Source: Candidatus Iainarchaeum sp.
GTDB taxonomy: Archaea; Iainarchaeota; Iainarchaeia; Iainarchaeales; 0-14-0-20-30-16
DNA length: 32,000 bases
Direction: 5' to 3'
Assembly (NCBI GenBank): GCA_028710695.1
Contig: JAQTTP010000004.1
Span: 30,001 to 62,000 of the forward strand
Of this stretch, positions 3-32,000 are shown piece by piece; position 1 is the first letter of the stretch; each line of letters begins with the position of its first letter. The notes below the pieces were generated by a model, which was given only the letters and a program-made list of their open reading frames with translations, was not told the origin of the DNA and ran no database searches. A program made the position numbers and the translations under genes.

Positions 3-2435
3 ACTAAGAACGATGTTTTAGACACAACAGGCCACGCAGTTCTAGTAAATGGAATTGTAGTTGGTGAAACAGCTCACGTTAGCGATGTTTTAGCTGCAAA
101 CAAATTGTCAACTGAGGTTGCAAAGTTAGCAGTATACACAACTGGCGGAGAAGTAGTACCTGGGGCAGAAACTTGTGTTGATGCAACAGGAACCGTAGAT
201 GACGGCCTAACAGTTAAGAAGAAATTCGTTGGAACTGCTTTAGGAGAAACAAAAGGATCAGATAACTTTGCTGCTGCAGATGTTATTGCAAAAGGTGCAA
301 ATGTTGGAACTGACCTTTTGGCAGATGAAAGTTCAGCAAGCTATAAAGTTGGTGGAACAACATATACATCTTCAATTAGAGAACAAGTAGCTCTTGGTGC
401 TCAAGCATTATTTGATGACAGATATTATGTTGGAGACATGGGCTTAGCTTATGATGCAGAAGACTTTGTATACACAGTGACTTTTGGAGATTTGAACTTT
501 GCTAAAGATACTGCAACAGGCGGATATACAAGCCCATCATGGACAGATGGAACTAATGATAAGGTAGTTATTCCTTTTTTAGGATCAACTTATATGGTGT
601 ATAGTATTAACGATAGTTCAGACCAGATAGTATTAGTAAACGAAAGTTCAGTAAAATCCTATGCTCCTGGTGCAAAGTTAGAAAACTTAGTTGGTAAAGA
701 TGGTAAAGCATATTATGCCACAATAGATGGTGTAGTATATAGTTCTACAGACCCAACTACAGTAAAGATGACTTTGTATAACGCAGAAACTGGCGTTGCA
801 GAGACAGAGAGTACAAAAGTAGCTGAAGGAGAAACTTTTGCAGAAGATTTATTAGATACTGGTGTAGATGTTCACCAAGTTGATAACATAGGTACTTCTG
901 ATGTTCCTGCCTACGATATACAAATATTGTTGGGTGAAGACAAATTAACAATAAAGAACAACGAAGGATTCCCATATGATTCAACAAAAACAAAAACAAA
1001 TACACAGTATGACTGGAAATCAACAATAAGTTTAACTGGTGGTAAATTAACAAATATAGTAATAAAGAACACTGCCAAAAATGATAAAACTTACACAGAA
1101 AAAAGTATGTTAAACGCTGGAGAAACAGCATGGTTATACGGTGACTTTATTGGTGTAAGATTTAGCGGACTAGAATTGCCAGATTATAGTTCATATGTAT
1201 CTACAACTAAAGAAACAACAACAATAGAATTTACTGATGCATTAGAAAACTCAGATAATATGCCTGGTATAAAATACTATGGTACTGATGATGCATTACA
1301 CGAGCTTCCATTCTATTATCAGTTAACTTTGAGTGCTGCAGATGATACTAACCTAGCTGCAACATTTACTATGGATGGCCAAGACAAGATTCTAAAAATA
1401 GTTGCAGAAGCAGATGGTAACTATAGTGTGTACACTGGTACTGGTAGCGATGTTGATGGAGAATATACAATAAAAATAACTGGTGCAACAGACTGGAAAT
1501 ATACTGCAGATGGAGATATTGATATCAATAGTCCATTAGCATTTACAAATAGTGGAGATATAAGCCAATATTATATCTTTGGTTATGACGCTACAAATAG
1601 TGTTGGATGGTTATTCCTGGGGGCAGATGTTCCTTATAACTTGAAGAGTTCAGCAGCATCTTATGGATCATTTGAGTTAGAAGGGTCTGATCAAGCAGTA
1701 GCATCTTCAACAGTAGCTGATGACTTTAACTTCTATTTACCTCACTTAGAAGGAGAAATAGATTCTTTGACATCAATAGCTGCATACACAGATAACCAAA
1801 TTTCAGCTGCTTACTTTAAAGTAGATCAAGATGCAGCAACAGCTAACTCTGGTGAATTTGCGGTGTATATAAACACAGAAACTGGAAAAGCACCATTAGT
1901 TGGTGAAGGTGGATCAACTAATGATATACCAACTGGATCACAAATCAACTATAGTAGTTCAACAACCTTGATAAAGGCCGGTAAAGATACTGGAATAAGC
2001 TGGGCATACAATGCATTCGGAACAAAGTTCGGTGTTGAAAGCGACTTCCCATTCTTTGTAATACCTGAAGCACAAGCATACCCTGAAGTACACATTGTGA
2101 CTGGAACTGCAACAGTAAATGCTGAAGGTCAAGTATGTACTACTGGTCCTGAAACAACAACTCCAAGTGTTGATACTCCATACACTAATGCTACATTACC
2201 TGTAATAGAAGCAGATAAAGCAGGAACAGGTAAATACATAGTAATTGGTGGATGGGCTGTTAATAGTTTGTTCCCTGAAGAATTAACTGCAAACTTAGTT
2301 AAGGAAGGAGACAAAGTATTAGAGACAGTTGCTGGTAACGTAATAGCTGCTGGTTTCACAAAGGAAAACACAGTTGCAGTTGTTGACGAGCTAATTGCTT
2401 TGTTAACTGCTGATGACGTAGTAGTTCCATTGTAA
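3..2435 (+). CDS. S-layer-like surface protein (5' partial; continues upstream of window)
   Basis: This frame is open from the window edge, so the TTG at 105 is only the ORF caller's first start. The N-terminal stretch LVNGIVVGETAHVSDVLAANKL and the C-terminal KYIVIGGWAVNSLFPEELTANL...VVDELIALL resemble the conserved end domains of archaeal S-layer proteins (from memory). The protein is Thr/Ser/Asp/Gly-rich with only two Cys and many N-x-S/T sequons. A hairpin plus oligo-T follows. Confidence 0.65.
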   Translation, partial: TKNDVLDTTGHAVLVNGIVVGETAHVSDVLAANKLSTEVAKLAVYTTGGEVVPGAETCVDATGTVDDGLTVKKKFVGTALGETKGSDNFAAADVIAKGANVGTDLLADESSASYKVGGTTYTSSIREQVALGAQALFDDRYYVGDMGLAYDAEDFVYTVTFGDLNFAKDTATGGYTSPSWTDGTNDKVVIPFLGSTYMVYSINDSSDQIVLVNESSVKSYAPGAKLENLVGKDGKAYYATIDGVVYSSTDPTTVKMTLYNAETGVAETESTKVAEGETFAEDLLDTGVDVHQVDNIGTSDVPAYDIQILLGEDKLTIKNNEGFPYDSTKTKTNTQYDWKSTISLTGGKLTNIVIKNTAKNDKTYTEKSMLNAGETAWLYGDFIGVRFSGLELPDYSSYVSTTKETTTIEFTDALENSDNMPGIKYYGTDDALHELPFYYQLTLSAADDTNLAATFTMDGQDKILKIVAEADGNYSVYTGTGSDVDGEYTIKITGATDWKYTADGDIDINSPLAFTNSGDISQYYIFGYDATNSVGWLFLGADVPYNLKSSAASYGSFELEGSDQAVASSTVADDFNFYLPHLEGEIDSLTSIAAYTDNQISAAYFKVDQDAATANSGEFAVYINTETGKAPLVGEGGSTNDIPTGSQINYSSSTTLIKAGKDTGISWAYNAFGTKFGVESDFPFFVIPEAQAYPEVHIVTGTATVNAEGQVCTTGPETTTPSVDTPYTNATLPVIEADKAGTGKYIVIGGWAVNSLFPEELTANLVKEGDKVLETVAGNVIAAGFTKENTVAVVDELIALLTADDVVVPL

Positions 2436-2440
2436 GAGTA

Positions 2441-2491
2441 AGGAATTAATTTTCCTTTCTTTTTTCTTTTTTTTTATTTATTTACTTTTTT
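2441..2491 (+). terminator. Hairpin (aggaa-ttaatt-ttcct) followed by a long T-rich tract
   Basis: The 5-bp stem at 2441-2445/2452-2456 sits 6 nt after the stop codon. It is followed by ttcttttttctttttttttatttatttacttttttg. Oligo-T tracts are the established archaeal termination signal. Confidence 0.6.
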
Positions 2492-2600
2492 GATTCCTGA
2501 CTTTAATCTCTTAAAATAAGTTCTCATAGACTTAACTTTTTAATTCTTTTATTAAAAATATCTTGTTGCTTGCAAAAGAATTTTTCACAAAAATAAATAA

Positions 2601-2610
2601 AAGTTTATAA
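2601..2610 (+). promoter_or_regulatory. Candidate BRE/TATA (aagtttataa) in the 374-bp AT-rich spacer upstream of the giant gene
   Basis: One-mismatch variant of the AAGGTTTATA motif found upstream of three other transcription units. It lies 200 bp from the ATG, and other TATA-like boxes (2671-2684, 2706-2716) are closer, so the assignment is uncertain. Confidence 0.25.
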
Positions 2611-2809
2611 CCTATATTTATAACTTATAGAGTGATTAAGTTATATATAAAATAACAATTTTTTATCACACACTTTATAAAGTTATCTGCTTTATTATTT
2701 TCGACAAAATATAATTAAACCACATTTTTTGATGGCCAAAAAAATCATATGGTTGTTAGATGTGGTAGTTGCTAAGGAGAAAATAAACTAATCTGTTGGA
2801 GGGTTATAA

Positions 2810-5800
2810 ATGAATAAAAATAGTGTTGGACGAAGTAAATTGAAAAATTTGTTTTTAAGTTTTTTTGTTTTGTTTTTTGTGGTGTTATGCGCAGGCTTTG
2901 TAAGTGCTGCAATAACAAGCATAACAGTAACAGATCCAGATGGTGGTGAATACTGGAGCGGTGACAGGAATATTACCTGGACTGCAGTAGGATGTGCTAC
3001 TGATCTAAACGTTAATATTTATTGGCAGGATGTATCTTTGGGCAATTCAACACAAATTGCTGTGGATGTAAACTGTGAATTACAATATTATCAATGGGAT
3101 ACAACCTCCGTAGCGAATGATACAGATTATAAAATAAAAATTCGTGCATCTGCTGATTCTGAGACTTATGATATTTCAAATGCTGTTTTTATAATTGATA
3201 ACACCGTTCCAACATTAACCCCTGTGACTATTGCTTCCGGTGATAGCAATACTTCTTCAGCAAAAGTAGGTAGTACAATAACATTATCTTTTACTGCAAG
3301 TGAAACATTGTCTGTTTTACCTACAGTAACAATAGCAACACATAGTGTGGTTGCAACAAATACTGGTGGATTAAATTATACAGCAACATATGCTATGGTT
3401 ACTGGTGATTCAACTGGGCTGGTGCCATTTACAATAGATTTTAATGATTTGGCAGGAAATGATGGTGTTCAGGTAGCTGCAACAACTAACTCTAGTTATG
3501 TTATTTTTGATAAAACTGCGCCTACTGTATCTGACGTAAATTCTACTAATACAGATAATAATTACAAGGTGGGCGATGATATTAATATTACAGTTGAGTT
3601 TAGTGAGGCCGTAATTGTAACTGGTACACCATTGATTTTCTTAGAATTGGGTGCAACCGATAGAAATGCAACTTATGAAAGTGGAACCGGTACAACTACT
3701 TTGACTTTTACTTATACAGTACAAGCAGGCGACACAAGTGCTGATTTAGATTATAATGGCACTGGCGCTTTAATTTTGAATAGTGGAACTATAGCTGATG
3801 CTGCCGGTAACACTGCAACTTTAACTTTAGCTGCCCCTGGTGCAGAGGGCTCTTTAGCACACGGTAAAGCAATAGTAATTGATACTACTGCTCCAATTAT
3901 AAGTGGTGTTTATTCTAATGCTACTGCGGCAGGTGTCTTAAAAATAGGTGACACAATAATATTTACTGTAGAAATTGATGTTGACGAAAATGGTTTGACA
4001 ATTCTTCCTGCGGGTTATAATGGTCATGCTTTTGTTCCTAGTTGGGCAAGTGATGATGGAAATTCTTACACAGCAACTTATACTGTTGTAGCTGGTGATG
4101 ACTTAGTTACAGCTTTACAGCTAACTGATGTAAACGCAGAGGATGCTACTGGTAATATTAGTGCTGATGTAAATGGTTCTGATGTAGCAAAAACAATTGA
4201 TGCAACATATCCAACTGTAAGTGATGTAAACTCTACAAAAGATGATGGTTCTTACAAAGCGGGTGTAGATATTAATATTACAGTTGGGTTTAGTGAAGCT
4301 GTAACTGTAACTGGTGCTCCTTTACTTGTTTTAGAATTGGGTGCAACCGACAGGAATGCAATTTATGCAAGTGGTTCTGGCACAACAACTTTAACCTTTA
4401 CTTACACTGTTGAGGCTGGCGACACCAGTAGTGATTTAGATTATAATGCTACTGATGGTTTAGATTTGAATAGTGGGACTATAAAAGATGCTGCAGGCAA
4501 TGCTGCAACTTTAACTTTAGCTGCTCCTGGTGCTGCAGGCTCATTAGCTGATGGTAAAGCAATAGTAATTGATACTACTGCTCCAACTGTATCTGACGTA
4601 AATTCTACTAATACAGATAATAATTACAAGGTGGGTGATGATATTAATATTACAGTTGAATTTACTGAGGCTGTAATTGTAACAGGTACTCCTTTGATTT
4701 ACTTAGAATTAGGTGCCACAGACAGAAATGCAAGTTATGTAAGTGGATCTGGTACAACAACTTTAACTTTTACTTATACAGTACAAACCGGTGATACCTC
4801 TGCAGATTTAGATTATAATGGTACTGGTGCTTTAATTTTGAATAGTGGAACTATAAACGATGCTGCATTGAATAATGCAACATTGACTTTGGCTACTCCT
4901 GGTGACGTAGGCTCTTTAGCACACGGTAAAGCAATAGTAATTGATACTACTGCTCCAATTATAAGTGGTGTTTATTCTAATGCTACTGCGGCAGGTGTCT
5001 TAAAAATAGGTGACACAATAATATTTACTGTAGAAATTGATGTTGACGAAAATGGTTTGACAATTCTTCCTGCGGGTTATAATGGTCATGCTTTTGTTCC
5101 TAGTTGGGCAAGTGATGATGGAAATTCTTACACAGCAACTTATACTGTTGTAGCTGGTGATGACTTAGTTACAGCTTTACAGCTAACTGATGTAAACGCA
5201 GAGGATGCTACTGGTAATATTAGTGCTGATGTAAATGGTTCTGATGTAGCAAAAACAATTGATGCAACATATCCAACTGTAAGTGATGTAAACTCTACAA
5301 AAGATGATGGTTCTTACAAAGCGGGTGTAGATATTAATATTACAGTTGGGTTTAGTGAAGCTGTAACTGTAACTGGTGCTCCTTTACTTGTTTTAGAATT
5401 GGGTGCAACCGACAGGAATGCAATTTATGCAAGTGGTTCTGGCACAACAACTTTAACCTTTACTTACACTGTTGAGGCTGGCGACACCAGTAGTGATTTA
5501 GATTATAATGCTACTGATGGTTTAGATTTGAATAGTGGGACTATAAAAGATGCTGCAGGCAATGCTGCAACTTTAACTTTAGCTGCTCCTGGTGCTGCAG
5601 GCTCATTAGCTGATGGTAAAGCAATAGTAATTGATACTACTGCTCCAACTGTATCTAATGTAACATCTACAAAAGATAATGGTACTTACAAAGCAGGTAC
5701 GGATCTTAACATTACTGTAACTTTTACTCAAGCAGTAACTGTAACTGGCACACCAATTTTAACCTTAAATACTGGTGATATAAATAGAAATGCGCAATAC

Positions 5801-8242
5801 CTTACTGGATCTGGCACAACAACTTTAACTTTTACTTACACTGTCCAAGCCGGTGATACATCCTTAGATTTAGATTATAATGGCACAGATGCTTTAGATT
5901 TGAATAGCGGAACTATAACTGATGCTGCTTTGAATAACGCAACTTTGACATTGGCTACTCCAGGTGCTGCTGGTTCATTAGGTGCCAATAAAGCTTTAGT
6001 AATTGATACTACTGCTCCGATTATTAGTTCAGTAACTTCTAATGCTACTGAAGCAGGTGTTTTGAAGATTGGTGACACAATAATATTTACTGCTGATATA
6101 AGTGTAACTGAAGCAGGTTTAACTCTCCTTCCAACAACTTATAATGGTCAAGTAATAGCATGGGGTACTGTTAATGGTGGAGATACTTACACAGCAACCT
6201 ATACTGTTATAGCTGGTGATGATACTGCAGTAGCTATTCAGTTGACTGATGTAAATGCAACTGATGCTGTAGGTAACATAAGTGCAAATGTAAGCGGCTC
6301 AGATGTAGCTAAGACAATTGATGCAACTAGACCTACTGTACTTGATGTGAACTCAACTAAGGCAGATGGTTATTACAAGGCGGGTGTAGATATTAATATT
6401 ACAGTTGGGTTTAGTGAAGATGTAAATATAACTGGTGCACCATTAATTGTTTTAGAATTAGGTGCTACTGATAGAAATGCGATTTATGTTGATGGTAATG
6501 GTACTGATACCTTAACATTTACTTATACTGTTCAGGCAGGCGATACATCTTTAGATTTAGATTATAACGCTACTGATGGTTTAGATTTGAATGGTGGAAC
6601 TATAACTGATTCAACTGCTGGTAACGCTGCAACTTTGACATTAGCTGCTCCTGGTGCTGCAGGTTCATTAGCCAATGGTAAGGCAATAGTAATTGATACT
6701 ACTGCTCCAACTGTAACTGGTGTTACTCCAGTAACTTTGGCAGATGCGAGTGTAGGAACAGTTGATGTAAATATAACATTCTCAGAAACAATGGATGAGG
6801 CTACTTTAGGAACTATGACTGTGGAAGGTTTAAATGATAGTCCAATAACTATAACTAACAGTTCTTGGGCGAATAGCTCGACTATTTGGCAAGGAACATT
6901 TACCTTTACAGATGATAATGAGGTTGTAACTGATGCATTTTATGGAATATTAGGTGCAAAAGATTTAGCAGGTAATGTAATGAGTACCTTAAGTACAAGA
7001 GGAGAAAATAACGATTTAAATGCAGATACTAACAATCCGACAGTAGCAATAACAATGAGTGATTATGCTTTGAAAGCTGGAGAAACAGCAACAGTAACAT
7101 TTACATTCTCAGAAGCTCCAACTGGATTTGCAGTGGGGGATATAAACTCTCCTAGTGGAGCGATTTCAGGGTTATCTGGAACTACAGTATATACTGCAAC
7201 ATTTACTCCAACTGTAAGTACAACGGATGCAACAAATGTAATCACTGTTGGTACTGACTGGACAGATGCAGCAGGTAATGCTCCTGGCGTATCAACTACA
7301 TCAAGTAATTATGCAGTAGATACTTTATTACCAACAGTTTCTTCTGCGACAGCAGATTCAGATCCGGCAACAGCAGGAGTAATTACAATTACTGTAATAT
7401 TTAGTGAGACAATAGATACTGGAACAAGTCCAACAGTAAGAGTTACTGGTTTGGCTACAAATCCATATTCAGTAACAGAAACAGATTTCAATTCAACAAC
7501 TTGGACTGGAACATTTACTTTGTTAAATAATGATGAGAATGCAACTGCAACAATAACAGTATCCGGGGCAAAAGATGTTGCAGGTAACACAATGACTGCA
7601 AATAATAGTGCAGGAACATTTACTGCTGACACTATTGCTCCAGTAGTAAGTAGTGTTTCCTTTGATAAAGCAACTTACAGGATTACTCCAGATGTAAATG
7701 TAACAGTGACTGTAGTTGAAGACACCACAGCAGCAACAATAACTGTTAATGGTAGTGGTGCAACAGAGGGTGTTAATGGAACTTGGACATATACATTTGC
7801 ACATGGAAAAGCAGTAGTTGGAACATATAGTTTGTTAATAACTGCTACTGATGCCGCAGGAAATAGTAAACAATCTCTTGCTTACTATAATGTCTCTGCT
7901 GCAGATACAACTGGTGATTATAACTATACCCAGAGCTTAAATGTAAACTGGAATACATTGTGGTTACCTCCAAATATAAGTGCTTTAAATGATAGCAACA
8001 CCTCGGTTGCAGGTGTTGTTGGTTATAAGTCTGGAGACCACGGTTATGATAACCACTGGGAATCTGGTGGAGCTTTATGGACAATACTGTATCACTATGA
8101 TTCAGATTCTGCAGAATGGCTTGTTCAGTACCAGGGTGGCGAATCAGAAGGAACTGGGACTTTAACTGATATGAATTCAGATTTACAAAGTCCATATTGG
8201 ATTTACCTGAGTTCTGCTGATAGATTCCAGCTTGATAACTAA
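2810..8242 (+). CDS. Giant secreted surface protein/adhesin (1810 aa) made of tandem Ig-like beta-sandwich repeats
   Basis: GGAGGG lies 8 nt upstream of the ATG. The N-terminal signal peptide is KLKNLFLSFFVLFFVVLCAGFVSA|A. It is followed by a GEYW...ITW...YKIKI domain and then about 118-aa repeats with the motif TLTFTYTVxAGDTSxDLDY...LNxGTIxDAAGNxATLTL...AIVIDTTAP. A second repeat class (VNITFSETMD..., ATVTFTFSEAP...) and a unique W/Y-rich C-terminal domain follow. N-x-S/T sequons are dense and there is no C-terminal TM segment. Confidence 0.9.
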   Translation: MNKNSVGRSKLKNLFLSFFVLFFVVLCAGFVSAAITSITVTDPDGGEYWSGDRNITWTAVGCATDLNVNIYWQDVSLGNSTQIAVDVNCELQYYQWDTTSVANDTDYKIKIRASADSETYDISNAVFIIDNTVPTLTPVTIASGDSNTSSAKVGSTITLSFTASETLSVLPTVTIATHSVVATNTGGLNYTATYAMVTGDSTGLVPFTIDFNDLAGNDGVQVAATTNSSYVIFDKTAPTVSDVNSTNTDNNYKVGDDINITVEFSEAVIVTGTPLIFLELGATDRNATYESGTGTTTLTFTYTVQAGDTSADLDYNGTGALILNSGTIADAAGNTATLTLAAPGAEGSLAHGKAIVIDTTAPIISGVYSNATAAGVLKIGDTIIFTVEIDVDENGLTILPAGYNGHAFVPSWASDDGNSYTATYTVVAGDDLVTALQLTDVNAEDATGNISADVNGSDVAKTIDATYPTVSDVNSTKDDGSYKAGVDINITVGFSEAVTVTGAPLLVLELGATDRNAIYASGSGTTTLTFTYTVEAGDTSSDLDYNATDGLDLNSGTIKDAAGNAATLTLAAPGAAGSLADGKAIVIDTTAPTVSDVNSTNTDNNYKVGDDINITVEFTEAVIVTGTPLIYLELGATDRNASYVSGSGTTTLTFTYTVQTGDTSADLDYNGTGALILNSGTINDAALNNATLTLATPGDVGSLAHGKAIVIDTTAPIISGVYSNATAAGVLKIGDTIIFTVEIDVDENGLTILPAGYNGHAFVPSWASDDGNSYTATYTVVAGDDLVTALQLTDVNAEDATGNISADVNGSDVAKTIDATYPTVSDVNSTKDDGSYKAGVDINITVGFSEAVTVTGAPLLVLELGATDRNAIYASGSGTTTLTFTYTVEAGDTSSDLDYNATDGLDLNSGTIKDAAGNAATLTLAAPGAAGSLADGKAIVIDTTAPTVSNVTSTKDNGTYKAGTDLNITVTFTQAVTVTGTPILTLNTGDINRNAQYLTGSGTTTLTFTYTVQAGDTSLDLDYNGTDALDLNSGTITDAALNNATLTLATPGAAGSLGANKALVIDTTAPIISSVTSNATEAGVLKIGDTIIFTADISVTEAGLTLLPTTYNGQVIAWGTVNGGDTYTATYTVIAGDDTAVAIQLTDVNATDAVGNISANVSGSDVAKTIDATRPTVLDVNSTKADGYYKAGVDINITVGFSEDVNITGAPLIVLELGATDRNAIYVDGNGTDTLTFTYTVQAGDTSLDLDYNATDGLDLNGGTITDSTAGNAATLTLAAPGAAGSLANGKAIVIDTTAPTVTGVTPVTLADASVGTVDVNITFSETMDEATLGTMTVEGLNDSPITITNSSWANSSTIWQGTFTFTDDNEVVTDAFYGILGAKDLAGNVMSTLSTRGENNDLNADTNNPTVAITMSDYALKAGETATVTFTFSEAPTGFAVGDINSPSGAISGLSGTTVYTATFTPTVSTTDATNVITVGTDWTDAAGNAPGVSTTSSNYAVDTLLPTVSSATADSDPATAGVITITVIFSETIDTGTSPTVRVTGLATNPYSVTETDFNSTTWTGTFTLLNNDENATATITVSGAKDVAGNTMTANNSAGTFTADTIAPVVSSVSFDKATYRITPDVNVTVTVVEDTTAATITVNGSGATEGVNGTWTYTFAHGKAVVGTYSLLITATDAAGNSKQSLAYYNVSAADTTGDYNYTQSLNVNWNTLWLPPNISALNDSNTSVAGVVGYKSGDHGYDNHWESGGALWTILYHYDSDSAEWLVQYQGGESEGTGTLTDMNSDLQSPYWIYLSSADRFQLDN
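3848..4594 (+). repeat. Perfect 747-bp direct repeat, copy 1
   Basis: Compared line by line with 4910-5656. I found no mismatch, and the offset is exactly 1062 bp. Confidence 0.85.
4910..5656 (+). repeat. Perfect 747-bp direct repeat, copy 2
   Basis: Identical to 3848-4594 by eye. Identity stops sharply on both sides. Confidence 0.85.
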
Positions 8243-8252
8243 CCCAAAAATA

Positions 8253-8290
8253 ATGTTCACAAAAAGTGAACATTTTTTTTTATTTTTATA
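8253..8290 (+). terminator. Hairpin atgttcac-aaaaa-gtgaacat followed by T9
   Basis: Perfect 8-bp stem at 8253-8260/8266-8273, starting 11 nt after the stop codon and running into tttttttttatttttat. Confidence 0.75.
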
Positions 8291-8305
8291 TTTTGAGGTG
8301 TATAT

Positions 8306-9385
8306 ATGAAACGGTATTTAAGCGCACTAATTTTTTTGATATTTTGCGTATCTTTTGTTTTTGCAACTCCTGGAGATTGGAAAGGAATTGTTGACATAAA
8401 CGGTTCAGAGCCAGAGGTGGGGACAACAGTATCAGCATATACTGGAAGTACATTGCTGGATAGTACAACTACTCCAACTACTTCTGCGGGTGCAACTGCG
8501 TATGATTCAAATGGTTTTTATATTCTTGTTTTTGAAACCACAATTGACGCAGCCCTTACATTTAAAGTTTGTGGAATAACTGCAGATACAAATACTTTTA
8601 GTGTTGGTACCCATGATTTAAATATTTCAGCAACTCTTCAAGCAAATGGGACTGCGGCTTGTACTTGTGATGGGATTTGTTCTGGAGGGCATTGTGTAAA
8701 CCCTGGAGCATCAGGAGTATGTTCGGCTAATACTTATTATTGTAATAGTAATGGTTCTTGTGAAACTGCATATGGTGAAACATCATCAAATTGTTCTGCT
8801 GATTGTTCATCAGGGGGTGGATCTGGTGGATCTGGTGGATCATCAACAATTATAATAGCAGAAACTACGGAAGAAGCAATAGAAATCGGTAGTGAGGAAA
8901 CAATAACAACAACAGTTTCAAGTGGTGGAAGTAGAACAATCAAAGTAAAGGATGAAGAACACACTGTAACTGTTGATGAAACAAATGTTGAAGAACAAAC
9001 AGCAAGAATAACTATTGCTTCAACTCCAATGACATACATATTGAAAACAGGTCAATCTGTAAAAGCAGACTTTGAGAACGATGGAGTATACGATCTAAAG
9101 GTAACTTTGGGTGGCGTAGATGCTTCTGGGGCTAAGCTGTATTTATTGCAGATTGCAGAACCAGTAGCTAAAGCAGCAGACACAACAAAAGAGCCTACTG
9201 GCGGAACAATAACTACTGAAGACAAAACAACTACCACAACTGATGATGGTAGTACAACAACAGATAACACAACTGGAACTACAGACACCGAAGAAACAAT
9301 AAGCAGTGCTTGGGTATGGTGGGTTCTAGGGGTAATAATTGTTTTAGTAGTTGTTTACCTAGGATATGCAATGATCAAGAAGTAA
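8306..9385 (+). CDS. Secreted, C-terminally membrane-anchored modular surface protein (359 aa)
   Basis: GAGGTG lies upstream of the ATG. Signal peptide: MKRYLSALIFLIFCVSFVFA|TP. The modules are a beta-rich N-domain, a Cys-rich module (CTCDGICSGGHCVNPG...CNSNGSCETAYGETSSNCSADC), a GGSGGSGGS linker, a second beta domain, a Thr-rich stalk (TTTTTDDGSTTTDNTTGTTDTEET) and a terminal TM helix plus KK (WVWWVLGVIIVLVVVYLGYAMIKK). Confidence 0.85.
   Translation: MKRYLSALIFLIFCVSFVFATPGDWKGIVDINGSEPEVGTTVSAYTGSTLLDSTTTPTTSAGATAYDSNGFYILVFETTIDAALTFKVCGITADTNTFSVGTHDLNISATLQANGTAACTCDGICSGGHCVNPGASGVCSANTYYCNSNGSCETAYGETSSNCSADCSSGGGSGGSGGSSTIIIAETTEEAIEIGSEETITTTVSSGGSRTIKVKDEEHTVTVDETNVEEQTARITIASTPMTYILKTGQSVKADFENDGVYDLKVTLGGVDASGAKLYLLQIAEPVAKAADTTKEPTGGTITTEDKTTTTTDDGSTTTDNTTGTTDTEETISSAWVWWVLGVIIVLVVVYLGYAMIKK
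8816..8842 (+). repeat. 3 x 9-bp microsatellite (ggtggatct ggtggatct ggtggatca) encoding the GGS linker
   Basis: Read directly from the sequence. It is in frame and encodes GGSGGSGGS. Confidence 0.9.
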
Positions 9386-9425
9386 AGGGATTCTTTCCCT
9401 CTTTTTTTATTTTTATTTATTTGTT
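9386..9425 (+). terminator. Hairpin aggga-ttctt-tccct followed by T7 and a T-rich tract
   Basis: The stem is at 9386-9390/9396-9400, immediately after the stop codon. It is followed by ctttttttatttttatttatttg. Confidence 0.6.
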
Positions 9426-9570
9426 TTTATTCTTTCTTTTGTCTAATTTGTATTTAACTAAAGCCGATCTTGCCCTATCTGGCGTAAAAGCAGTTAATCT
9501 TGTGACTCAAAACATAACCTTTTATATATATCCTGCTTTAATATATATAGGCTTATGAGTGTGAGATACT

Positions 9571-10293
9571 ATGTTTGGTGAGCATGTAAATAACCTCAAA
9601 TATTTGGGATTAACTGAATACCAGGCGAAAGTATTGTATGCTCTTATGAAAAACAAAGTAAGTACTATTTCTGAGATAGAAAACATTGCTGGCGTGCCAA
9701 AGACCAGAATTTATGATGTAATGAAGGAACTAATGGACAAAGATTATGTTATCCAGATAGAAGATAAGCCAAAAAAATATAGAATAAGAAATGTTGATCT
9801 AGTTTTAGATAATCTTGTTGAAACAAAAGAAAAGGAGTTCAATAACGTTAAAGTAACTGTGGGCACAATGAAAGAAATGTTTAAAACAAATGAAATGCCT
9901 TTACAGAACAAAATGATCCATATGGATAAAAAGAACTTCCTAAAGCTATTAAATGAAGAGTTAGCTAATGCCAATCTTAATATCTGTGCTTTCTCTGGTT
10001 CAGAGATAGGGGAAAAAGAGCTAAAAGAGAGGCTTAAGAAGGCAGTAGAGAAGAATATAAGTGTAAAGATTGTCACTCACCCAGAGCATAAAAAGCACAT
10101 TTGGGAGATAGGTGGAGAAGGTAGAGAATTTAACCACAACCTTTTGGCATACCTAATAGATGGGAAAAAAGCTATTTTTAGATTAAATACTGATAGTGAA
10201 CAGCAATATAAAGTGTCAATAGTAGAGAATAATGATGGCTTAGTGAATATGATGAAGTCATACTTTGACAATTGCTGGGCCCAAGGAAAATAA
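9571..10293 (+). CDS. TrmB-family transcriptional regulator
   Basis: The N-terminal winged HTH LGLTEYQAKVLYALMKNKVSTISEIENIAGVPKTRIYDVMKELMDKDYV matches the TrmB N-terminal domain pattern (LGLSEYEAKVY..L...G..TA.EIa..sgVPR.rVYdVL..L...G). Confidence 0.8.
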   Translation: MFGEHVNNLKYLGLTEYQAKVLYALMKNKVSTISEIENIAGVPKTRIYDVMKELMDKDYVIQIEDKPKKYRIRNVDLVLDNLVETKEKEFNNVKVTVGTMKEMFKTNEMPLQNKMIHMDKKNFLKLLNEELANANLNICAFSGSEIGEKELKERLKKAVEKNISVKIVTHPEHKKHIWEIGGEGREFNHNLLAYLIDGKKAIFRLNTDSEQQYKVSIVENNDGLVNMMKSYFDNCWAQGK

Positions 10294-10304
10294 CTGCAAA
10301 TAAT

Positions 10305-10568
10305 TCAGTAAATATTATCGTGGTGCTCATAATCTAAAAGTCGAACAACTTTTGTATTTTCATCTATTTCGTAAGTAAGGACAAATGATTTACAAATATG
10401 TACTCGACGAGTACCGTGCATATCGCCTTTAAGTGGTTTGTAATGATTTGGTGCCTCTAATATTTCATCTACTTTTTTACGAATTATTTTTAGTTGCTTT
10501 TTGTCTTTTTTTGCTAGCTTTGAAAAAACTTTATCTAAGTGTTCAGGTATTTCTAAAGCATATGTCAT
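10305..10568 (-). CDS. relE: Type II toxin, RelE/ParE superfamily mRNA interferase
   Basis: 87 aa. The pattern KLAKKDKKQLKIIRKKVDEILEAP.HYKPLKGDMHGTRRVHI.KSFVLTYEIDE..KVVRLLDYEHHDNIY is the typical RelE/StbE layout. The start lies 2 nt after the stop of the upstream small ORF. Confidence 0.75.
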   Translation of the reverse strand: MTYALEIPEHLDKVFSKLAKKDKKQLKIIRKKVDEILEAPNHYKPLKGDMHGTRRVHICKSFVLTYEIDENTKVVRLLDYEHHDNIY

Positions 10569-10570
10569 AG

Positions 10571-10792
10571 TTATAACCCATACCTTTTAGCAAAATTATC
10601 AACTTTTATAAATTTGCCTTGCCTAATTCTTTCTAATTTTTGAATATATTCTTGTTTTACTTCTGGTTCGTTTTCTATTATGGATCGCATAAAAAACTCT
10701 ATTTGTTTACTCATACTCATTCCATTGCTTTTACAAAAATCAGAAAATCTCTTGTATACTGTTTCTTCAACATTAAACGTCTTTAAAGTCAT
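10571..10792 (-). CDS. Ribbon-helix-helix type antitoxin (73 aa)
   Basis: The N-terminal beta-strand plus helices (LKTFNVEETVYKRFSDFCKSNGMSMSKQIEFFMRSII) fit the RHH/CopG antitoxin pattern, and it is translationally coupled to relE. The ORF-track start at 10801 is a GTG inside the SD-like GTGATA, so I chose the ATG at 10792. Confidence 0.65.
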   Translation of the reverse strand: MTLKTFNVEETVYKRFSDFCKSNGMSMSKQIEFFMRSIIENEPEVKQEYIQKLERIRQGKFIKVDNFAKRYGL

Positions 10793-10804
10793 AATTATCA
10801 CTTA

Positions 10805-10822
10805 TTATTTAATATTAAATAA
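10805..10822. promoter_or_regulatory. 18-bp perfect palindrome ttatttaatattaaataa just upstream of the antitoxin gene (candidate operator/TATA)
   Basis: The reverse complement equals the sequence itself. A third half-site ttatttaa lies at 10826-10833. RHH antitoxins are established autorepressors that bind inverted repeats in their own promoter. Confidence 0.45.
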
Positions 10823-10874
10823 CATTATTTAAACTTATTGTTTTTGTGCTTTGGGTTGTGAAGGGATTCTTTTT

Positions 10875-15387: not shown

Positions 15388-16011
15388 ATGTTTTACATTG
15401 TAGATATGGAAAAAGTTGTAAGAATACCAGCATCAAAGTTTGGATCTGAATTAAAAGAAATAGTAAAAGATGTTCTGAACGACGAGATTGAGGGAAAGAT
15501 TGATGAAAGATATGGTGTTGTAATTTGTGTTGTTGATATTCTTGACTTTGGAGAAGCAAAAGTTCCTTTAGGGGACAGCGCGGCATATATAACTGTAAAA
15601 TACAAAACTTTAGTATTCTCTCCAGAAATTGGAGCAATATACGAAACAAATGTAAAAGATGTAGTTGAGTTTGGAGTATTCTTGGGTTTGGGTCCTTTTG
15701 ATGGGCTTGTTCACGTATCACAATTAATGGACGATTTCATAAATTTTGATACAAAAGACAGAAAATTTGTTGGTAGAGATACAAAGCTAACTTTGGAAAA
15801 CGAAGATTTAGTTTATGCTAAACTAATTAATTGTAGTTATGGAAGCGATGTAGTTCAATCAAAGATCGGATTGACAATGAGACAAAAAGGATTAGGAAAA
15901 ATGGAATGGATAATGAAAGCAAGAAAGGATGTTGAAGGCGGAGAAGAAACCGCTAAAAAAGAAGCAAAGAAAGAAGGAACAAAAAAAGTAACTAAAAAAG
16001 AAGCAAAATAA
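15388..16011 (+). CDS. rpoE1: DNA-directed RNA polymerase subunit E' (Rpo7) with a Lys-rich C-terminal extension
   Basis: The protein begins MFYIVDMEKVVRIPASKFG and has an S1-like domain (YETNVKDVVEFGVFLGLGPFDGLVHVSQL). It ends in KKEAKKEGTKKVTKKEAK. Confidence 0.88.
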   Translation: MFYIVDMEKVVRIPASKFGSELKEIVKDVLNDEIEGKIDERYGVVICVVDILDFGEAKVPLGDSAAYITVKYKTLVFSPEIGAIYETNVKDVVEFGVFLGLGPFDGLVHVSQLMDDFINFDTKDRKFVGRDTKLTLENEDLVYAKLINCSYGSDVVQSKIGLTMRQKGLGKMEWIMKARKDVEGGEETAKKEAKKEGTKKVTKKEAK

Positions 16012-16030
16012 TTACGCGGGATGATTAATT

Positions 16031-16228
16031 ATGGTAAAAAGAGATTTTGCATGTAAGACTTGTGGATATATAAGTGAGGAAGAAATAGAATTATGTCCTG
16101 CTTGTAATAATAAAAAATTCACAACTTTTTGGCAAGGATATGTAGTTATAATTGATGTTGAAAAGTCTCAAGTAGCAAAAATACTTGGGATAACAAAACC
16201 AGGAAAGTTTGCATTAAGGATAGGATAA
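16031..16228 (+). CDS. spt4: Transcription elongation factor Spt4 (RpoE'')
   Basis: Zinc ribbon CKTCGY...CPACNN, followed by W.G.VVIID...S.VAK.LGI..PG.FALRI. Confidence 0.88.
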   Translation: MVKRDFACKTCGYISEEEIELCPACNNKKFTTFWQGYVVIIDVEKSQVAKILGITKPGKFALRIG

Positions 16229-16237
16229 GGTGATAAA

Positions 16238-16636
16238 ATGAAATTTAAGACAGTAAAAGAATCAGACAATAGATTGCTTAATAGAAGAGAGTTTATGATT
16301 TTGGTTGAGGATACAGATAAAACTCCAAAGAGAGACGATCTTGTAAAACAAATCTCTGCAAAAATGGGATTCGACGACAAGAAAGTAGTTGTTGATAAGA
16401 TCTTCACAACATATGGTATACCAGAAGTTAGAGTTTATGTTAAAGTTTATGACAACGTAAAGGATTTAGAAGAAATAGAATCAAAGAAAAACAACAAGGT
16501 AAGAGCAAAAATATTAGGGCTAGAAGTTAAAGATGGAAAGAAAGGAGCAAAAGGAAAAGCACCTGCTAAAGCACCCGCAAAGGAAGAAGCTAAAGTAGAG
16601 GCTCCAAAAGCACCAAAAGAAGAGAAGAAAGAATAA
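16238..16636 (+). CDS. rps24e: Ribosomal protein S24e with a KAPAK-type C-terminal extension
   Basis: The S24e core is NRLLNRREFMILVEDTDKTPKRDDLVKQISAKMG. The tail is GKKGAKGKAPAKAPAKEEAKVEAPKAPKEEKKE. Confidence 0.9.
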   Translation: MKFKTVKESDNRLLNRREFMILVEDTDKTPKRDDLVKQISAKMGFDDKKVVVDKIFTTYGIPEVRVYVKVYDNVKDLEEIESKKNNKVRAKILGLEVKDGKKGAKGKAPAKAPAKEEAKVEAPKAPKEEKKE

Positions 16637-31454: not shown

Positions 31455-31545
31455 TAGTTCGTTATATTATATAAATAGTGAACTTTCTGCTCTTTTAGCG
31501 GAGCATAAATAGATATATTAATCAGTCTTGTTGGAGGGGAATATT

Positions 31546-32000
31546 GTGAAAGCATATTTTATTGGACTTTTAGGAATCTTTTTTGTTTTATCTGCATCTT
31601 GCCTTTTTTCTGCAAGCATGTGGTATAAATTTGATGATGGCTGGGCAACAGATGGTAACGCCATTCTTAAGGTTTTTGTTGATACTGGTACTGATGGTGT
31701 GGCAAATACAGGTGTAAGTGTTGCTACTACACTAACTCTTGATAGCAATGACTGTGCTTATGCGGCAACAACTGCTGCTTATGCAGATGGTAATTATGCT
31801 AATTTTAATTTAGACTTAAATTGTGACGGCGTTTTAGATGCAAATGGTGCAGATTTAAATATAGTAATTTCAACTACTACTCCTGCTTTGTCTAAAGACT
31901 TTGAATTCTACCTTCCTGGATTCAAAGATATGGATATTAACTTTGATGTTGGTAGTTTAGATTCAGTGGTAGATATACAAACAGATTATAATCTAGTTTT
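31546..32000 (+). CDS. Secreted protein (3' partial; runs off the window), not in the ORF track
   Basis: GGAGGGG lies 6 nt upstream of the GTG. Hand translation is open to the window end: VKAYFIGLLGIFFVLSASCLFSASMWYKFDDGWATDGNAILKVFVDTGTDG... It has a signal peptide, Thr/Asp/Asn/Ala-rich composition and a DFEFYLP motif that also occurs in the S-layer-like protein (DFNFYLP). Confidence 0.6.
   Translation, partial: MKAYFIGLLGIFFVLSASCLFSASMWYKFDDGWATDGNAILKVFVDTGTDGVANTGVSVATTLTLDSNDCAYAATTAAYADGNYANFNLDLNCDGVLDANGADLNIVISTTTPALSKDFEFYLPGFKDMDINFDVGSLDSVVDIQTDYNLV

What the first reader, a model, noticed from the sequence alone, without database searches (positions are those of the whole stretch)
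2810..8242. 1810-aa secreted, anchor-less repeat protein as candidate cell-cell attachment factor
The architecture read from the translation is as follows. A signal peptide is followed by a roughly 100-aa GEYW/ITW/YKIKI domain and one Ig-like domain. Then come 3 x (A-B-A') super-repeats, giving nine 118-aa domains of two alternating classes. About four domains of a second Ig-like class follow (VNITFSETMD, ATVTFTFSEAP...TDAAGN), then a unique C-terminal domain. The protein is saturated with N-x-S/T sequons (NST, NIT, NAT, NGT, NSG) and lacks any C-terminal TM or sorting signal. This single gene occupies 17% of the window, in what otherwise looks like a streamlined genome. It sits right after the S-layer gene. 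Giant Ig-repeat proteins are the established architecture of bacterial adhesins. In a small-genome archaeon such a protein is a prime candidate for host or partner attachment.
Basis: partly seen in the sequence, partly recalled or inferred. Interest (0 to 1): 0.62.

Follow-up and report, generated by a model that had tools for sequence, protein, structure and literature searches.

The report
Giant Ig-repeat surface protein with membrane partner
A tiny DPANN archaeon carries a real 1810-residue, sugar-site-rich surface fibre gene. Its rare tail domain is always followed by a small membrane-anchored partner gene, so the "anchor-less" protein is probably tethered by that partner, while its proposed role in cell-cell attachment is still untested.

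Summary
Window 2810-8242(+) is one 1810-aa ORF. It has a Sec-type signal peptide, a Kre9/KNH-like Ig domain and one Ig domain. Three A-B-A' super-repeats follow (124/106/124 aa, period 1062 nt), then four Big_5/Big_12/Big_13 domains and a 115-aa C-terminal domain (CTD). There is no TM helix beyond the signal peptide. It has the highest N-x-S/T density of all 325 long ORFs in the 0.9-Mb genome.

New here:
- The CTD belongs to a very rare family: 9 representatives among 1.84 billion proteins, none in Pfam or PDB. It always sits at the extreme C-terminus.
- In all 9 loci recovered, the next gene on the same strand (11-117 nt away) is a homologue of the 359-aa gene at 8306-9385. That protein has a signal peptide, a beta-sandwich head, a Cys-rich module, a Thr-rich stalk and a C-terminal TM helix.
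- CTD and head were found in the same 2 of 196 genomes of the order.
- The pair is missing from both assembled congeners searched. In one of them a toxin-antitoxin pair fills the same site.

Best reading: a mobile two-gene surface module in which the partner tethers the fibre, analogous to SlaA/SlaB but not homologous. Adhesion is plausible but untested.

Earlier scan notes touch only this same DNA.

The parts
2511..2809 (+). Upstream non-coding part of the cassette, with a GGAGG Shine-Dalgarno at 2798-2802. The left border of the segment that differs from the same-genus genome G001 lies at about 2510.
   Evidence: Sequence. The blastn alignment to G001:C11 stops at window 2510.
2810..2908 (+). 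Signal peptide (aa 1-33): basic n-region, 20-aa hydrophobic core, VSA|A cleavage-type site.
   Evidence: This is the only Kyte-Doolittle peak in the protein. The same ASA|AIT or VLA|TIT junction occurs in homologues P0124 and P0122. Judged by inspection; no predictor was run.
2909..3202 (+). N-terminal Kre9/KNH-like Ig-like domain (aa 34-131) with two Cys (62, 89). Proposed distal tip of the fibre.
   Evidence: Pfam PF10342, E 1.3e-3, 19.8 bits against a 24.6 cut-off. Shared with P0124 at 38.5% identity over 148 aa.
3203..3511 (+). Single Ig-like domain (aa 132-234).
   Evidence: Weak Big_12 match, E 8.5e-4.
3512..6697 (+). Three A-B-A' super-repeats (aa 235-1296), made of domains of 124, 106 and 124 aa, with a period of 1062 nt.
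   Evidence: A and A' match Big_5 at threshold. Thousands of bacterial and archaeal repeat proteins match at 40-50% identity.
3848..4594 (+). First copy of the 747-nt block that is 100% identical to 4910-5656.
   Evidence: Flanks diverge by about 10-20% with sharp borders.
4910..5656 (+). Second copy of the 747-nt exact block.
6698..7894 (+). Four Ig-like domains of a second class: Big_5 (aa 1297-1406), Big_12 (1407-1504), one more Big_5-like domain (1505-1607) and Big_13 (1608-1695).
Evidence: Pfam: Big_12 86 bits, Big_5 44.5 bits, Big_13 27.9 bits in the full-length scan and 35.8 bits alone.
7895..8242 (+). Conserved aromatic-rich C-terminal domain (CTD, aa 1696-1810) plus the stop codon. 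Proposed docking module.
   Evidence: 9 representatives among 1.84e9 proteins, always at the extreme C-terminus. No Pfam or PDB match. Alignments A1-A3.
8252..8281 (+). 9-bp hairpin followed by a T-run between the two genes. Possibly a partial terminator.
8306..9385 (+). Partner gene (P0131, 359 aa). It has a signal peptide, a beta-sandwich head with a PGDWKG motif (aa ~21-110), a Cys-rich module (~117-167), a GGS linker, a small beta domain, a Thr-rich stalk, a TM helix (334-358) and a short basic tail. GAGGTG Shine-Dalgarno at 8295-8300.
   Evidence: Homologues lie directly downstream of every CTD gene recovered.
9386..9484 (+). Terminator-like hairpin with a T-run. The right border of the segment absent from G001 lies at about 9485.

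Best explanation
The giant gene and the 359-aa gene after it form one two-gene surface module. Shown: both proteins have Sec-type signal peptides; the giant has no membrane anchor; the small one has a C-terminal TM helix; and the giant's 115-aa C-terminal domain (CTD) and the small protein's N-terminal beta-sandwich plus Cys-rich head form a strictly linked pair of rare families. Inferred: after export and signal-peptide cleavage, the CTD docks non-covalently onto the head of the partner. The partner's Thr-rich stalk and TM helix hold the complex on the cell. This is functionally like SlaB holding SlaA, but the proteins are unrelated. The array of about 15 N-glycosylated Ig-like domains then projects as a fibre, with the Kre9/KNH-like domain at its free tip. 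The fibre most likely mediates adhesion to a partner cell, a glycan or a surface. The stalk length changes by recombination between super-repeats, as the 747-nt exact duplication suggests. The whole cassette is accessory and moves among DPANN lineages.
For: Architecture.

Rarity and position of the CTD: 9 representatives among 1.84e9 proteins, each within 0-3 residues of the C-terminus.

Partner head: equally rare, 8 proteins among 5.8e9.

Adjacency: in all 9 CTD loci recovered, a P0131 homologue starts 11-117 nt downstream on the same strand. The loci are the window, L015, L016, L018, L022, L019, L021, L044 and L040.

Co-occurrence: in 196 genomes of the order, the CTD is found only in G000 and G068, and the partner head (residues 1-182) only in the same two.

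Conservation pattern: between loci only the CTD and the head are conserved (51-61% and 46-77% identity to the window's copies, excluding the divergent L016). The Ig stalks and the partners' C-terminal halves are not alignable.

Modularity: the partner's C-terminal half (beta domain, Thr stalk, TM) is a genus-typical anchor module. It is also found behind a different, repeat-rich head in G001.

Membrane anchor: 7 of 8 distinct partners carry a C-terminal TM helix. AF2 models the head as a beta sandwich (pLDDT 70-80) and residues 334-358 as a TM helix.

Glycosylation: AglB is present in the genome, and the giant has the top sequon density.

Accessory status: the gene was not found in 40 relatives. 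In G001, the S-layer-like 3' end is followed by an MNT/HEPN pair and then TrmB at the same site.
Against: No physical interaction has been shown or modelled. The AF2 model of the CTD failed (pLDDT 41) and no complex prediction was available.

Adjacent genes are inherited together, so the distance correlation between CTD and head (r = 0.91) is not independent evidence of binding.

Two divergent partner-like genes (P0138, P0140) follow large genes that have no detectable CTD. One partner (L021) lacks a TM helix.

A hairpin with a T-run separates the two genes, so co-transcription is unproven.

The context of three further CTD proteins (P0127, P0128, P0130) could not be examined.

Adhesion itself rests only on the architecture.
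Confidence: 0.5

Rival explanations
1. The pair is an alternative or additional two-component S-layer or sheath. The giant would be the lattice-forming, SlaA-like canopy protein and the partner its SlaB-like anchor, not an adhesive fibre.
For: The gene order (large anchor-less protein, then a small TM-anchored protein) mirrors slaA-slaB. DPANN S-layer candidates are Ig-rich, heavily N-glycosylated and lack a C-terminal TM helix, and TM-anchored SlaB-like proteins have been proposed for them (bioRxiv 10.1101/2023.10.27.564410). Foldseek lists SlaB chain 8qox_B at rank 7 for the partner model.
Against: That Foldseek hit is weak (E 0.024, TMq 0.16) and sits among generic beta sandwiches. There is no sequence match to any PDB chain. 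The pair was not found in the two congeners or in 194 of 196 genomes of the order, whereas the upstream S-layer-like gene is conserved in the family. Length and domain content vary from 857 to more than 2300 aa between loci, which fits a fibre better than a lattice.
Confidence: 0.15
2. The giant is released or is held on the cell by something other than the partner, for example by CTD binding to S-layer or host glycans as a lectin-like module. The downstream protein would then be a co-functioning but non-anchoring factor, such as a co-adhesin or a maturation factor.
For: The CTD is rich in conserved Trp and Tyr (W19, W75, W102 and Y11 are invariant), as in many carbohydrate-binding modules. 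A terminator-like hairpin separates the genes.
Against: A lectin for host or S-layer glycans would not need strict linkage to one specific membrane-protein head across 9 loci. No CBM or lectin family matches the CTD.
Confidence: 0.2
3. The N-terminal hydrophobic segment is not cleaved and serves as a signal anchor. The protein would then be tethered by its N-terminus, with the CTD as the distal, ligand-binding tip.
For: The hydrophobic core is long, about 20 residues.
Against: A canonical small-x-small site (VSA|A) directly follows the hydrophobic core and is conserved in homologues (ASA|A in P0124). This reading also leaves the strict linkage to the partner unexplained.
Confidence: 0.1
4. The three-fold super-repeat, or at least the exact 747-nt duplication, is an assembly artefact, and the true gene is shorter or longer.
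For: A 747-nt perfect repeat is longer than short reads. The genome is a 27-contig draft.
Against: The segment between the two exact copies (A2) differs from A1 by about 10% and is flanked by the block on both sides. At least two copies of the block are therefore needed to place it. The reading frame stays open throughout. Only the number of extra cycles is uncertain.
Confidence: 0.1

Closest known systems
SlaA/SlaB two-component S-layer of Sulfolobales (PDB 8qox)
   Same: A large, glycosylated, Ig-rich exported protein without a membrane anchor is encoded directly upstream of a smaller protein. That smaller protein has N-terminal beta-sandwich domains, a stalk and a C-terminal TM helix, and it holds the large protein on the cell.
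   Different: There is no sequence homology, and the only fold match is a weak, generic beta-sandwich similarity. The stalk is Thr-rich and low in confidence, not a coiled coil. The pair is a rare accessory cassette, not a universal envelope component. The large protein is a tandem Ig array of variable length.
Bacterial giant Ig-repeat adhesins and 'beta strand repeat-containing' proteins (Big_5/Big_12/Big_13 arrays, DUF4347 proteins)
   Same: The A/A' repeats are 40-50% identical to repeats in thousands of bacterial and Asgard proteins. Big_12, Big_5 and Big_13 exceed the Pfam cut-offs. Both show a tandem array with recent internal duplication.
   Different: None of the bacterial anchoring or secretion features was seen: the only hydrophobic segment is the signal peptide and Pfam and NCBIfam report only Ig-like domains. 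It has an archaeal Sec signal peptide, a high N-glycosylation sequon load, and its own rare CTD with a partner gene.
Putative DPANN S-layer and surface proteins (e.g. Nanobdella aerobiophila MJ1_0160 and MJ1_0707; bioRxiv 10.1101/2023.10.27.564410)
   Same: These are also Ig-rich, sequon-rich DPANN surface proteins. The large one lacks a TM helix, and TM-anchored SlaB-like candidates have been proposed.
   Different: Those proteins were proposed from expression data and predicted folds, with no conserved docking domain or gene pair defined. Homology to the present proteins was not tested here. The present pair is strain-variable.
SPEARE proteins of Nanohaloarchaeota (from my own knowledge: Hamm et al. 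2019, PNAS)
   Same: Very large DPANN surface proteins proposed to mediate host interaction.
   Different: SPEARE proteins carry protease, adhesion and restriction-endonuclease domains. None of these was found here.

Membership tests
Bacterial Ig-like domain arrays (Pfam Big_12 PF19078, Big_5 PF13205, Big_13 PF19077) | Domains score above the Pfam gathering cut-off | tested here: met
   Big_12 scores 86.1 bits against 27, Big_5 44.5 against 23.6, and Big_13 27.9 against 27. A and A' tested alone score 23.7-24.6 against 23.6.
Bacterial giant adhesins (functional class) | A recognised cell-wall or outer-membrane anchoring or secretion signal (LPXTG, RTX/T1SS, autotransporter, T9SS CTD) | tested here: not met
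   Pfam and NCBIfam report only Ig-like domains, and no anchoring or secretion family appears. The C-terminal domain matches no family.
Bacterial giant adhesins (functional class) | Demonstrated binding to a cell or a surface | not testable with these tools
   Needs an experiment.
SlaA/SlaB two-component S-layer | Adjacent genes: a large anchor-less exported protein followed by a smaller C-terminally TM-anchored protein | tested here: met
   The arrangement is conserved in 9 loci.
SlaA/SlaB two-component S-layer | Sequence or fold homology to SlaA or SlaB | tested here: not met
   No PDB sequence hit for the giant. The partner model hits 8qox_B only at E 0.024 and TMq 0.16, among generic sandwiches.
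SlaA/SlaB two-component S-layer | Long coiled-coil stalk in the anchor protein | tested here: not met
   The AF2 model shows no long helix apart from the TM helix. Residues 169-335 have pLDDT below 50 and contain only short strands and the Thr-rich stretch.
SlaA/SlaB two-component S-layer | A core envelope component present throughout the lineage | tested here: not met
   Not found in 40 relatives, including 2 congeners. The CTD is found in 2 of 196 genomes of the order.
Methanococcales-type S-layer proteins (Pfam S_layer_N / S_layer_C) | Pfam match in the giant protein | tested here: not met
   No hit in P0001. Only the upstream 838-aa gene has a sub-threshold S_layer_C hit.
PGF-CTERM / archaeosortase substrates | A C-terminal PGF motif followed by a TM helix and a basic tail | tested here: not met
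   The giant ends ...ADRFQLDN with no hydrophobic segment. The partner has a Thr-rich stretch, a TM helix and a basic tail, but no PGF motif (by inspection).
Kre9/KNH-like Ig-like domain (PF10342) | Score above the gathering cut-off | tested here: inconclusive
   19.8 bits against 24.6, E 1.3e-3, covering profile positions 5-89 of 94.

The most novel reading that the evidence does not exclude
The CTD and the partner head define a previously undescribed docking system for archaeal (DPANN) surface fibres. In it a portable 'plug' domain at the end of giant Ig-repeat proteins fits a 'socket' on a small adapter protein. The adapter's membrane-proximal half is swapped to suit each lineage's envelope, so whole adhesin cassettes can move horizontally between DPANN lineages and still be displayed.
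Probability: 0.35. Interest if true: 0.65.

Novelty: new variant of a known kind. Interest (0 to 1): 0.5.

Why it matters
How DPANN archaea attach surface fibres, and ultimately themselves, to other cells is largely unknown, and most of them cannot be cultured. If confirmed, this two-gene plug-and-socket module would do three things:
- explain how "anchor-less" giant proteins stay on the cell;
- supply two small domains (115 aa and about 150 aa) that can be expressed and tested for binding without growing the organism;
- give a sequence signature for finding strain-variable adhesin cassettes in metagenomes.

By itself, the giant protein is one more Ig-repeat surface protein and is not surprising.

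Tried and rejected
**Searches and predictions that gave nothing**
- AF2 on the CTD with an 8-sequence alignment gave pLDDT 41.5. The model is unusable, so no fold search was run on it.
- Pfam on the CTD (single sequence and all 9 family members), NCBIfam on the full-length giant protein, and a PDB profile search with the CTD alignment gave nothing.
- PDB sequence searches with the giant and with the S-layer-like protein gave nothing.
- A Foldseek search with the partner model gave only weak, generic beta-sandwich hits, all with E > 0.001.
- A viral-contig scan for the CTD found nothing.

**Tool failures and limits**
- The first related-loci run, with the 9-sequence alignment, failed because the alignment was too divergent. 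It was repeated with the 5 closest sequences.
I could therefore check neither expression nor read support for the 747-nt exact repeat.
- An attempt to obtain a taxon name through exact-sequence look-up of congeners' TrmB returned no names. The 'Woesearchaeota' label comes only from the record titles of CTD homologues.
- A word search of earlier findings failed on its word limit.

**Ideas rejected**
- A lipobox: the signal peptide has no L-[AS]-[GA]-C motif.
- A class III (pilin) signal peptide: there is no [KR]-G/A junction before the hydrophobic core.
- An enzymatic function: no catalytic family matches.
- A functional link to the S-layer-like gene: it is not a neighbour in the other seven loci checked.
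- Insertion scars: there are no clear target-site repeats at the cassette borders, only T-rich terminator-like sequence.
Full report
**1. The observation**

Window 2810-8242(+) is a single 1810-codon ORF. A GGAGG Shine-Dalgarno lies 7 nt before the ATG.

The only hydrophobic segment is the N-terminal one, about residues 13-32. It follows a basic n-region and ends in VSA|A. Nothing hydrophobic occurs at the C-terminus.

Repeated TAPxxS linkers give clean domain borders:
- signal peptide, residues 1-33;
- a Kre9/KNH-like Ig-like domain, 34-131 (Pfam E 1.3e-3, below cut-off);
- one Ig domain, 132-234;
- three A-B-A' super-repeats, 235-1296 (124 + 106 + 124 aa, 1062-nt period);
- Big_5, 1297-1406;
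- Big_12, 1407-1504 (86 bits);
- a further Ig-like domain, 1505-1607, called Big_5-like from its sequence motif and linker borders;
- Big_13, 1608-1695;
- a 115-aa aromatic-rich C-terminal domain (CTD), 1696-1810, with no family match.

A and B are distant versions of one Ig-like type, and B lacks a 21-aa C-terminal extension.

Super-repeats 1 and 2 share a 747-nt block that is 100% identical (3848-4594 = 4910-5656), while the flanks differ by 10-20%. The distinct A2 segment lies between two copies of the block, so at least two copies must exist. Only additional cycles could be hidden.

N-x-S/T sequons number 56 against 29.5 +/- 4.6 in shuffles. At 3.09 per 100 aa the density is the highest of all 325 ORFs of at least 300 aa in the genome, whose median is 0.53. 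The genome encodes an AglB/STT3 oligosaccharyltransferase.

The genome is a 0.9-Mb, 27-contig draft that is 86% complete. Named CTD homologues are annotated as Candidatus Woesearchaeota. The window also shows archaeal features: a TrmB regulator and a weak S_layer_C hit.

**2. The repeats are common; the ends are not**

The A/A' repeats match thousands of long bacterial and archaeal proteins at 40-50% identity. These include DUF4347 proteins, 'beta strand repeat-containing' proteins, and NosD-domain proteins of Asgard archaea. This places the stalk in a widespread class of Ig-like repeat modules and says little about function.

The full-length protein has no match at all in 40 relatives: 2 of the same genus, 4 of the same family, and 34 of the same order.

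The CTD has only 9 representatives among 1.84 billion cluster representatives. Each lies within 0-3 residues of the C-terminus of a large, sequon-rich protein of 427 to 2325 aa. Those proteins have unrelated or differently arranged stalks.

One of them, P0124 (1057 aa), shares both the Kre9-like N-terminal domain (38.5%) and the CTD (52%) but lacks the A-B-A' array.

**3. A conserved gene pair**

The gene after the giant (8306-9385, P0131, 359 aa) encodes, in order:
- a signal peptide;
- a beta-sandwich head beginning PGDWKG;
- a Cys-rich module of about 50 aa;
- a GGS linker;
- a small beta domain;
- a Thr-rich stretch;
- a C-terminal TM helix with a short basic tail.

In every locus where I could recover a CTD gene with its flank, a P0131 homologue starts 11-117 nt downstream on the same strand. 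There are 9 such loci (8 if the near-identical L018 and L022 count as one): the window, L015 (P0122), L016 (P0118), L018 (G068), L022, L019, L021, L044 (P0124) and L040.

The head family is as rare as the CTD, with 8 proteins among 5.8 billion. Across 196 genomes of the order, the CTD occurs only in G000 and G068 (the same result across 215 genomes of the phylum). The partner head (residues 1-182) occurs only in the same two genomes.

Between loci only the CTD and the head plus Cys-rich module are conserved. The giants' stalks and the partners' C-terminal halves are not alignable.

The C-terminal half of P0131 (beta domain, Thr stalk, TM helix) is 47% identical to the tail of a 534-aa protein in congener G001 that has a different, repeat-rich head. 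It is thus a lineage-typical anchor module joined to a cassette-specific head.

Seven of eight distinct partners have a C-terminal TM helix. The L021 copy is short and lacks one.

There are exceptions in the other direction. Two divergent head homologues (P0138, P0140) follow large genes that have no detectable CTD.

**4. The cassette is accessory**

In congener G001, the 3' end of the S-layer-like gene and the TrmB gene lie 1.4 kb apart, with an MNT/HEPN-type pair between them. In the window they are 7.1 kb apart. The segment that differs is window ~2511-9484, which is exactly the two genes with their signals.

In congener G002 the contig ends just upstream of TrmB.

In other loci the pair sits beside toxin-antitoxin or abortive-infection genes and not beside an S-layer gene.

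**5. Mechanism**

Best-supported reading (confidence about 0.5): both proteins are exported by Sec. The giant's CTD docks on the partner's head. The partner's stalk and TM helix tether the complex. The glycosylated Ig array projects as a fibre with the Kre9/KNH-like domain at the tip.

Shown: the architecture, the absence of an anchor in the giant, the presence of an anchor in the partner, and the strict linkage and shared rarity of the two domains.

Inferred: the physical docking, the orientation, and the adhesive role.

The CTD model failed (pLDDT 41.5). The partner head is modelled as a beta sandwich (pLDDT 70-80). Its Foldseek matches are weak and generic: carboxypeptidase-regulatory-like domains, pilin domains, and SlaB 8qox_B at rank 7 with E 0.024. 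I do not take these as evidence of homology.

A hairpin with a T-run lies between the genes (8252-8281), so they may be transcribed separately or with attenuation.

**6. Comparison with what is known**

Functionally the closest system is SlaA/SlaB of Sulfolobales. A preprint on Nanobdella aerobiophila proposes SlaA-like (no TM helix) and SlaB-like (TM-anchored) Ig-rich glycoproteins in a DPANN archaeon (10.1101/2023.10.27.564410).

Membership in SlaA/SlaB fails on homology, on the coiled-coil stalk, and on universality. Membership in the Big_5/Big_12/Big_13 domain families is met. No bacterial-adhesin anchoring or secretion family was found.

The S-layer-sheath reading is less likely because the pair was not found in the congeners searched, one of which (G001) retains the S-layer-like gene at this site.

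**7. Verdict**

The finding is real and correctly described. The giant protein alone is an ordinary member of a known kind. The added value lies in the rare CTD and the strictly linked membrane partner, which are not in Pfam (either domain) or in the PDB sequence set (the CTD), and neither full-length protein matches NCBIfam. Together they give a testable explanation for how an 'anchor-less' DPANN surface fibre is held on the cell.

Earlier notes of this scan concern only this same DNA, namely the 747-bp duplication, the C-terminal domain, the downstream protein, and the gene island. None linked the CTD to the partner.

Noticed in passing
L002:481-1276 (G001:C11), the site equivalent to window 2511-9484: In the same-genus genome, a two-gene pair of 130 and 136 aa occupies the place of the giant-plus-partner cassette, between the S-layer-like gene and TrmB. 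By their sequence motifs the two look like a nucleotidyltransferase (MNT) and a HEPN/DUF86 protein. The site is a variable hot-spot.
   Followed up: partly
window 10297-10860: The RelE/RHH toxin-antitoxin stretch downstream of TrmB is missing from both congeners. Their alignments jump from window ~10292-10296 to ~10856-10861, so this is a second small insertion next to the cassette.
   Followed up: partly
window 3-2435 (full gene G000:C23:29919-32435, L047:420-2933): The 838-aa 'S-layer' candidate has only a sub-threshold Pfam S_layer_C hit (18 bits against 23.9). It has few N-glycosylation sequons (0.60 per 100 aa, observed/expected 0.68), unlike the giant next to it. It also has no C-terminal TM helix.
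   Followed up: partly
G000:C19, about 52328-84900 (outside the window): Four tandem paralogous ORFs of 2439-2609 aa share an N-terminus of the form MGLR(E/D)FY..(E/D)(E/D)KYY. They form a second family of giant proteins in this 0.9-Mb genome.
   Followed up: no
L028:478-2082 (G001:C6): A 534-aa protein has a different, repeat-rich head but the same membrane-proximal beta domain, Thr-rich stalk and TM tail as the partner P0131 (47% identity over residues 164-359). This is evidence for shuffling of anchor modules between surface proteins.
   Followed up: partly
window 2440-2490 and 9386-9430: The terminator-like hairpin with a T-run after the partner gene (AGGGATTCTTTCCCT + T-rich) resembles the one after the S-layer-like gene of G001 (AAGGGATTTTCCCTT + T-rich) more than the one after the window's own S-layer-like gene does. 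It may be a trace of how the cassette was inserted.
   Followed up: no
window 31522-32000 (continues to G000:C23:~66650): Another very large ORF (1708 aa, 31 sequons) starts at the end of the window.
   Followed up: no
L015:101-2151 and 15640-16310; L044:2810-4029: In other genomes the CTD-plus-partner cassette lies beside nucleotidyltransferase, Bro-N, RHH/PIN and AbiEii genes. It is followed by further large Ig/PKD surface-protein genes, that is, by variable 'surface and defence' islands.
   Followed up: no
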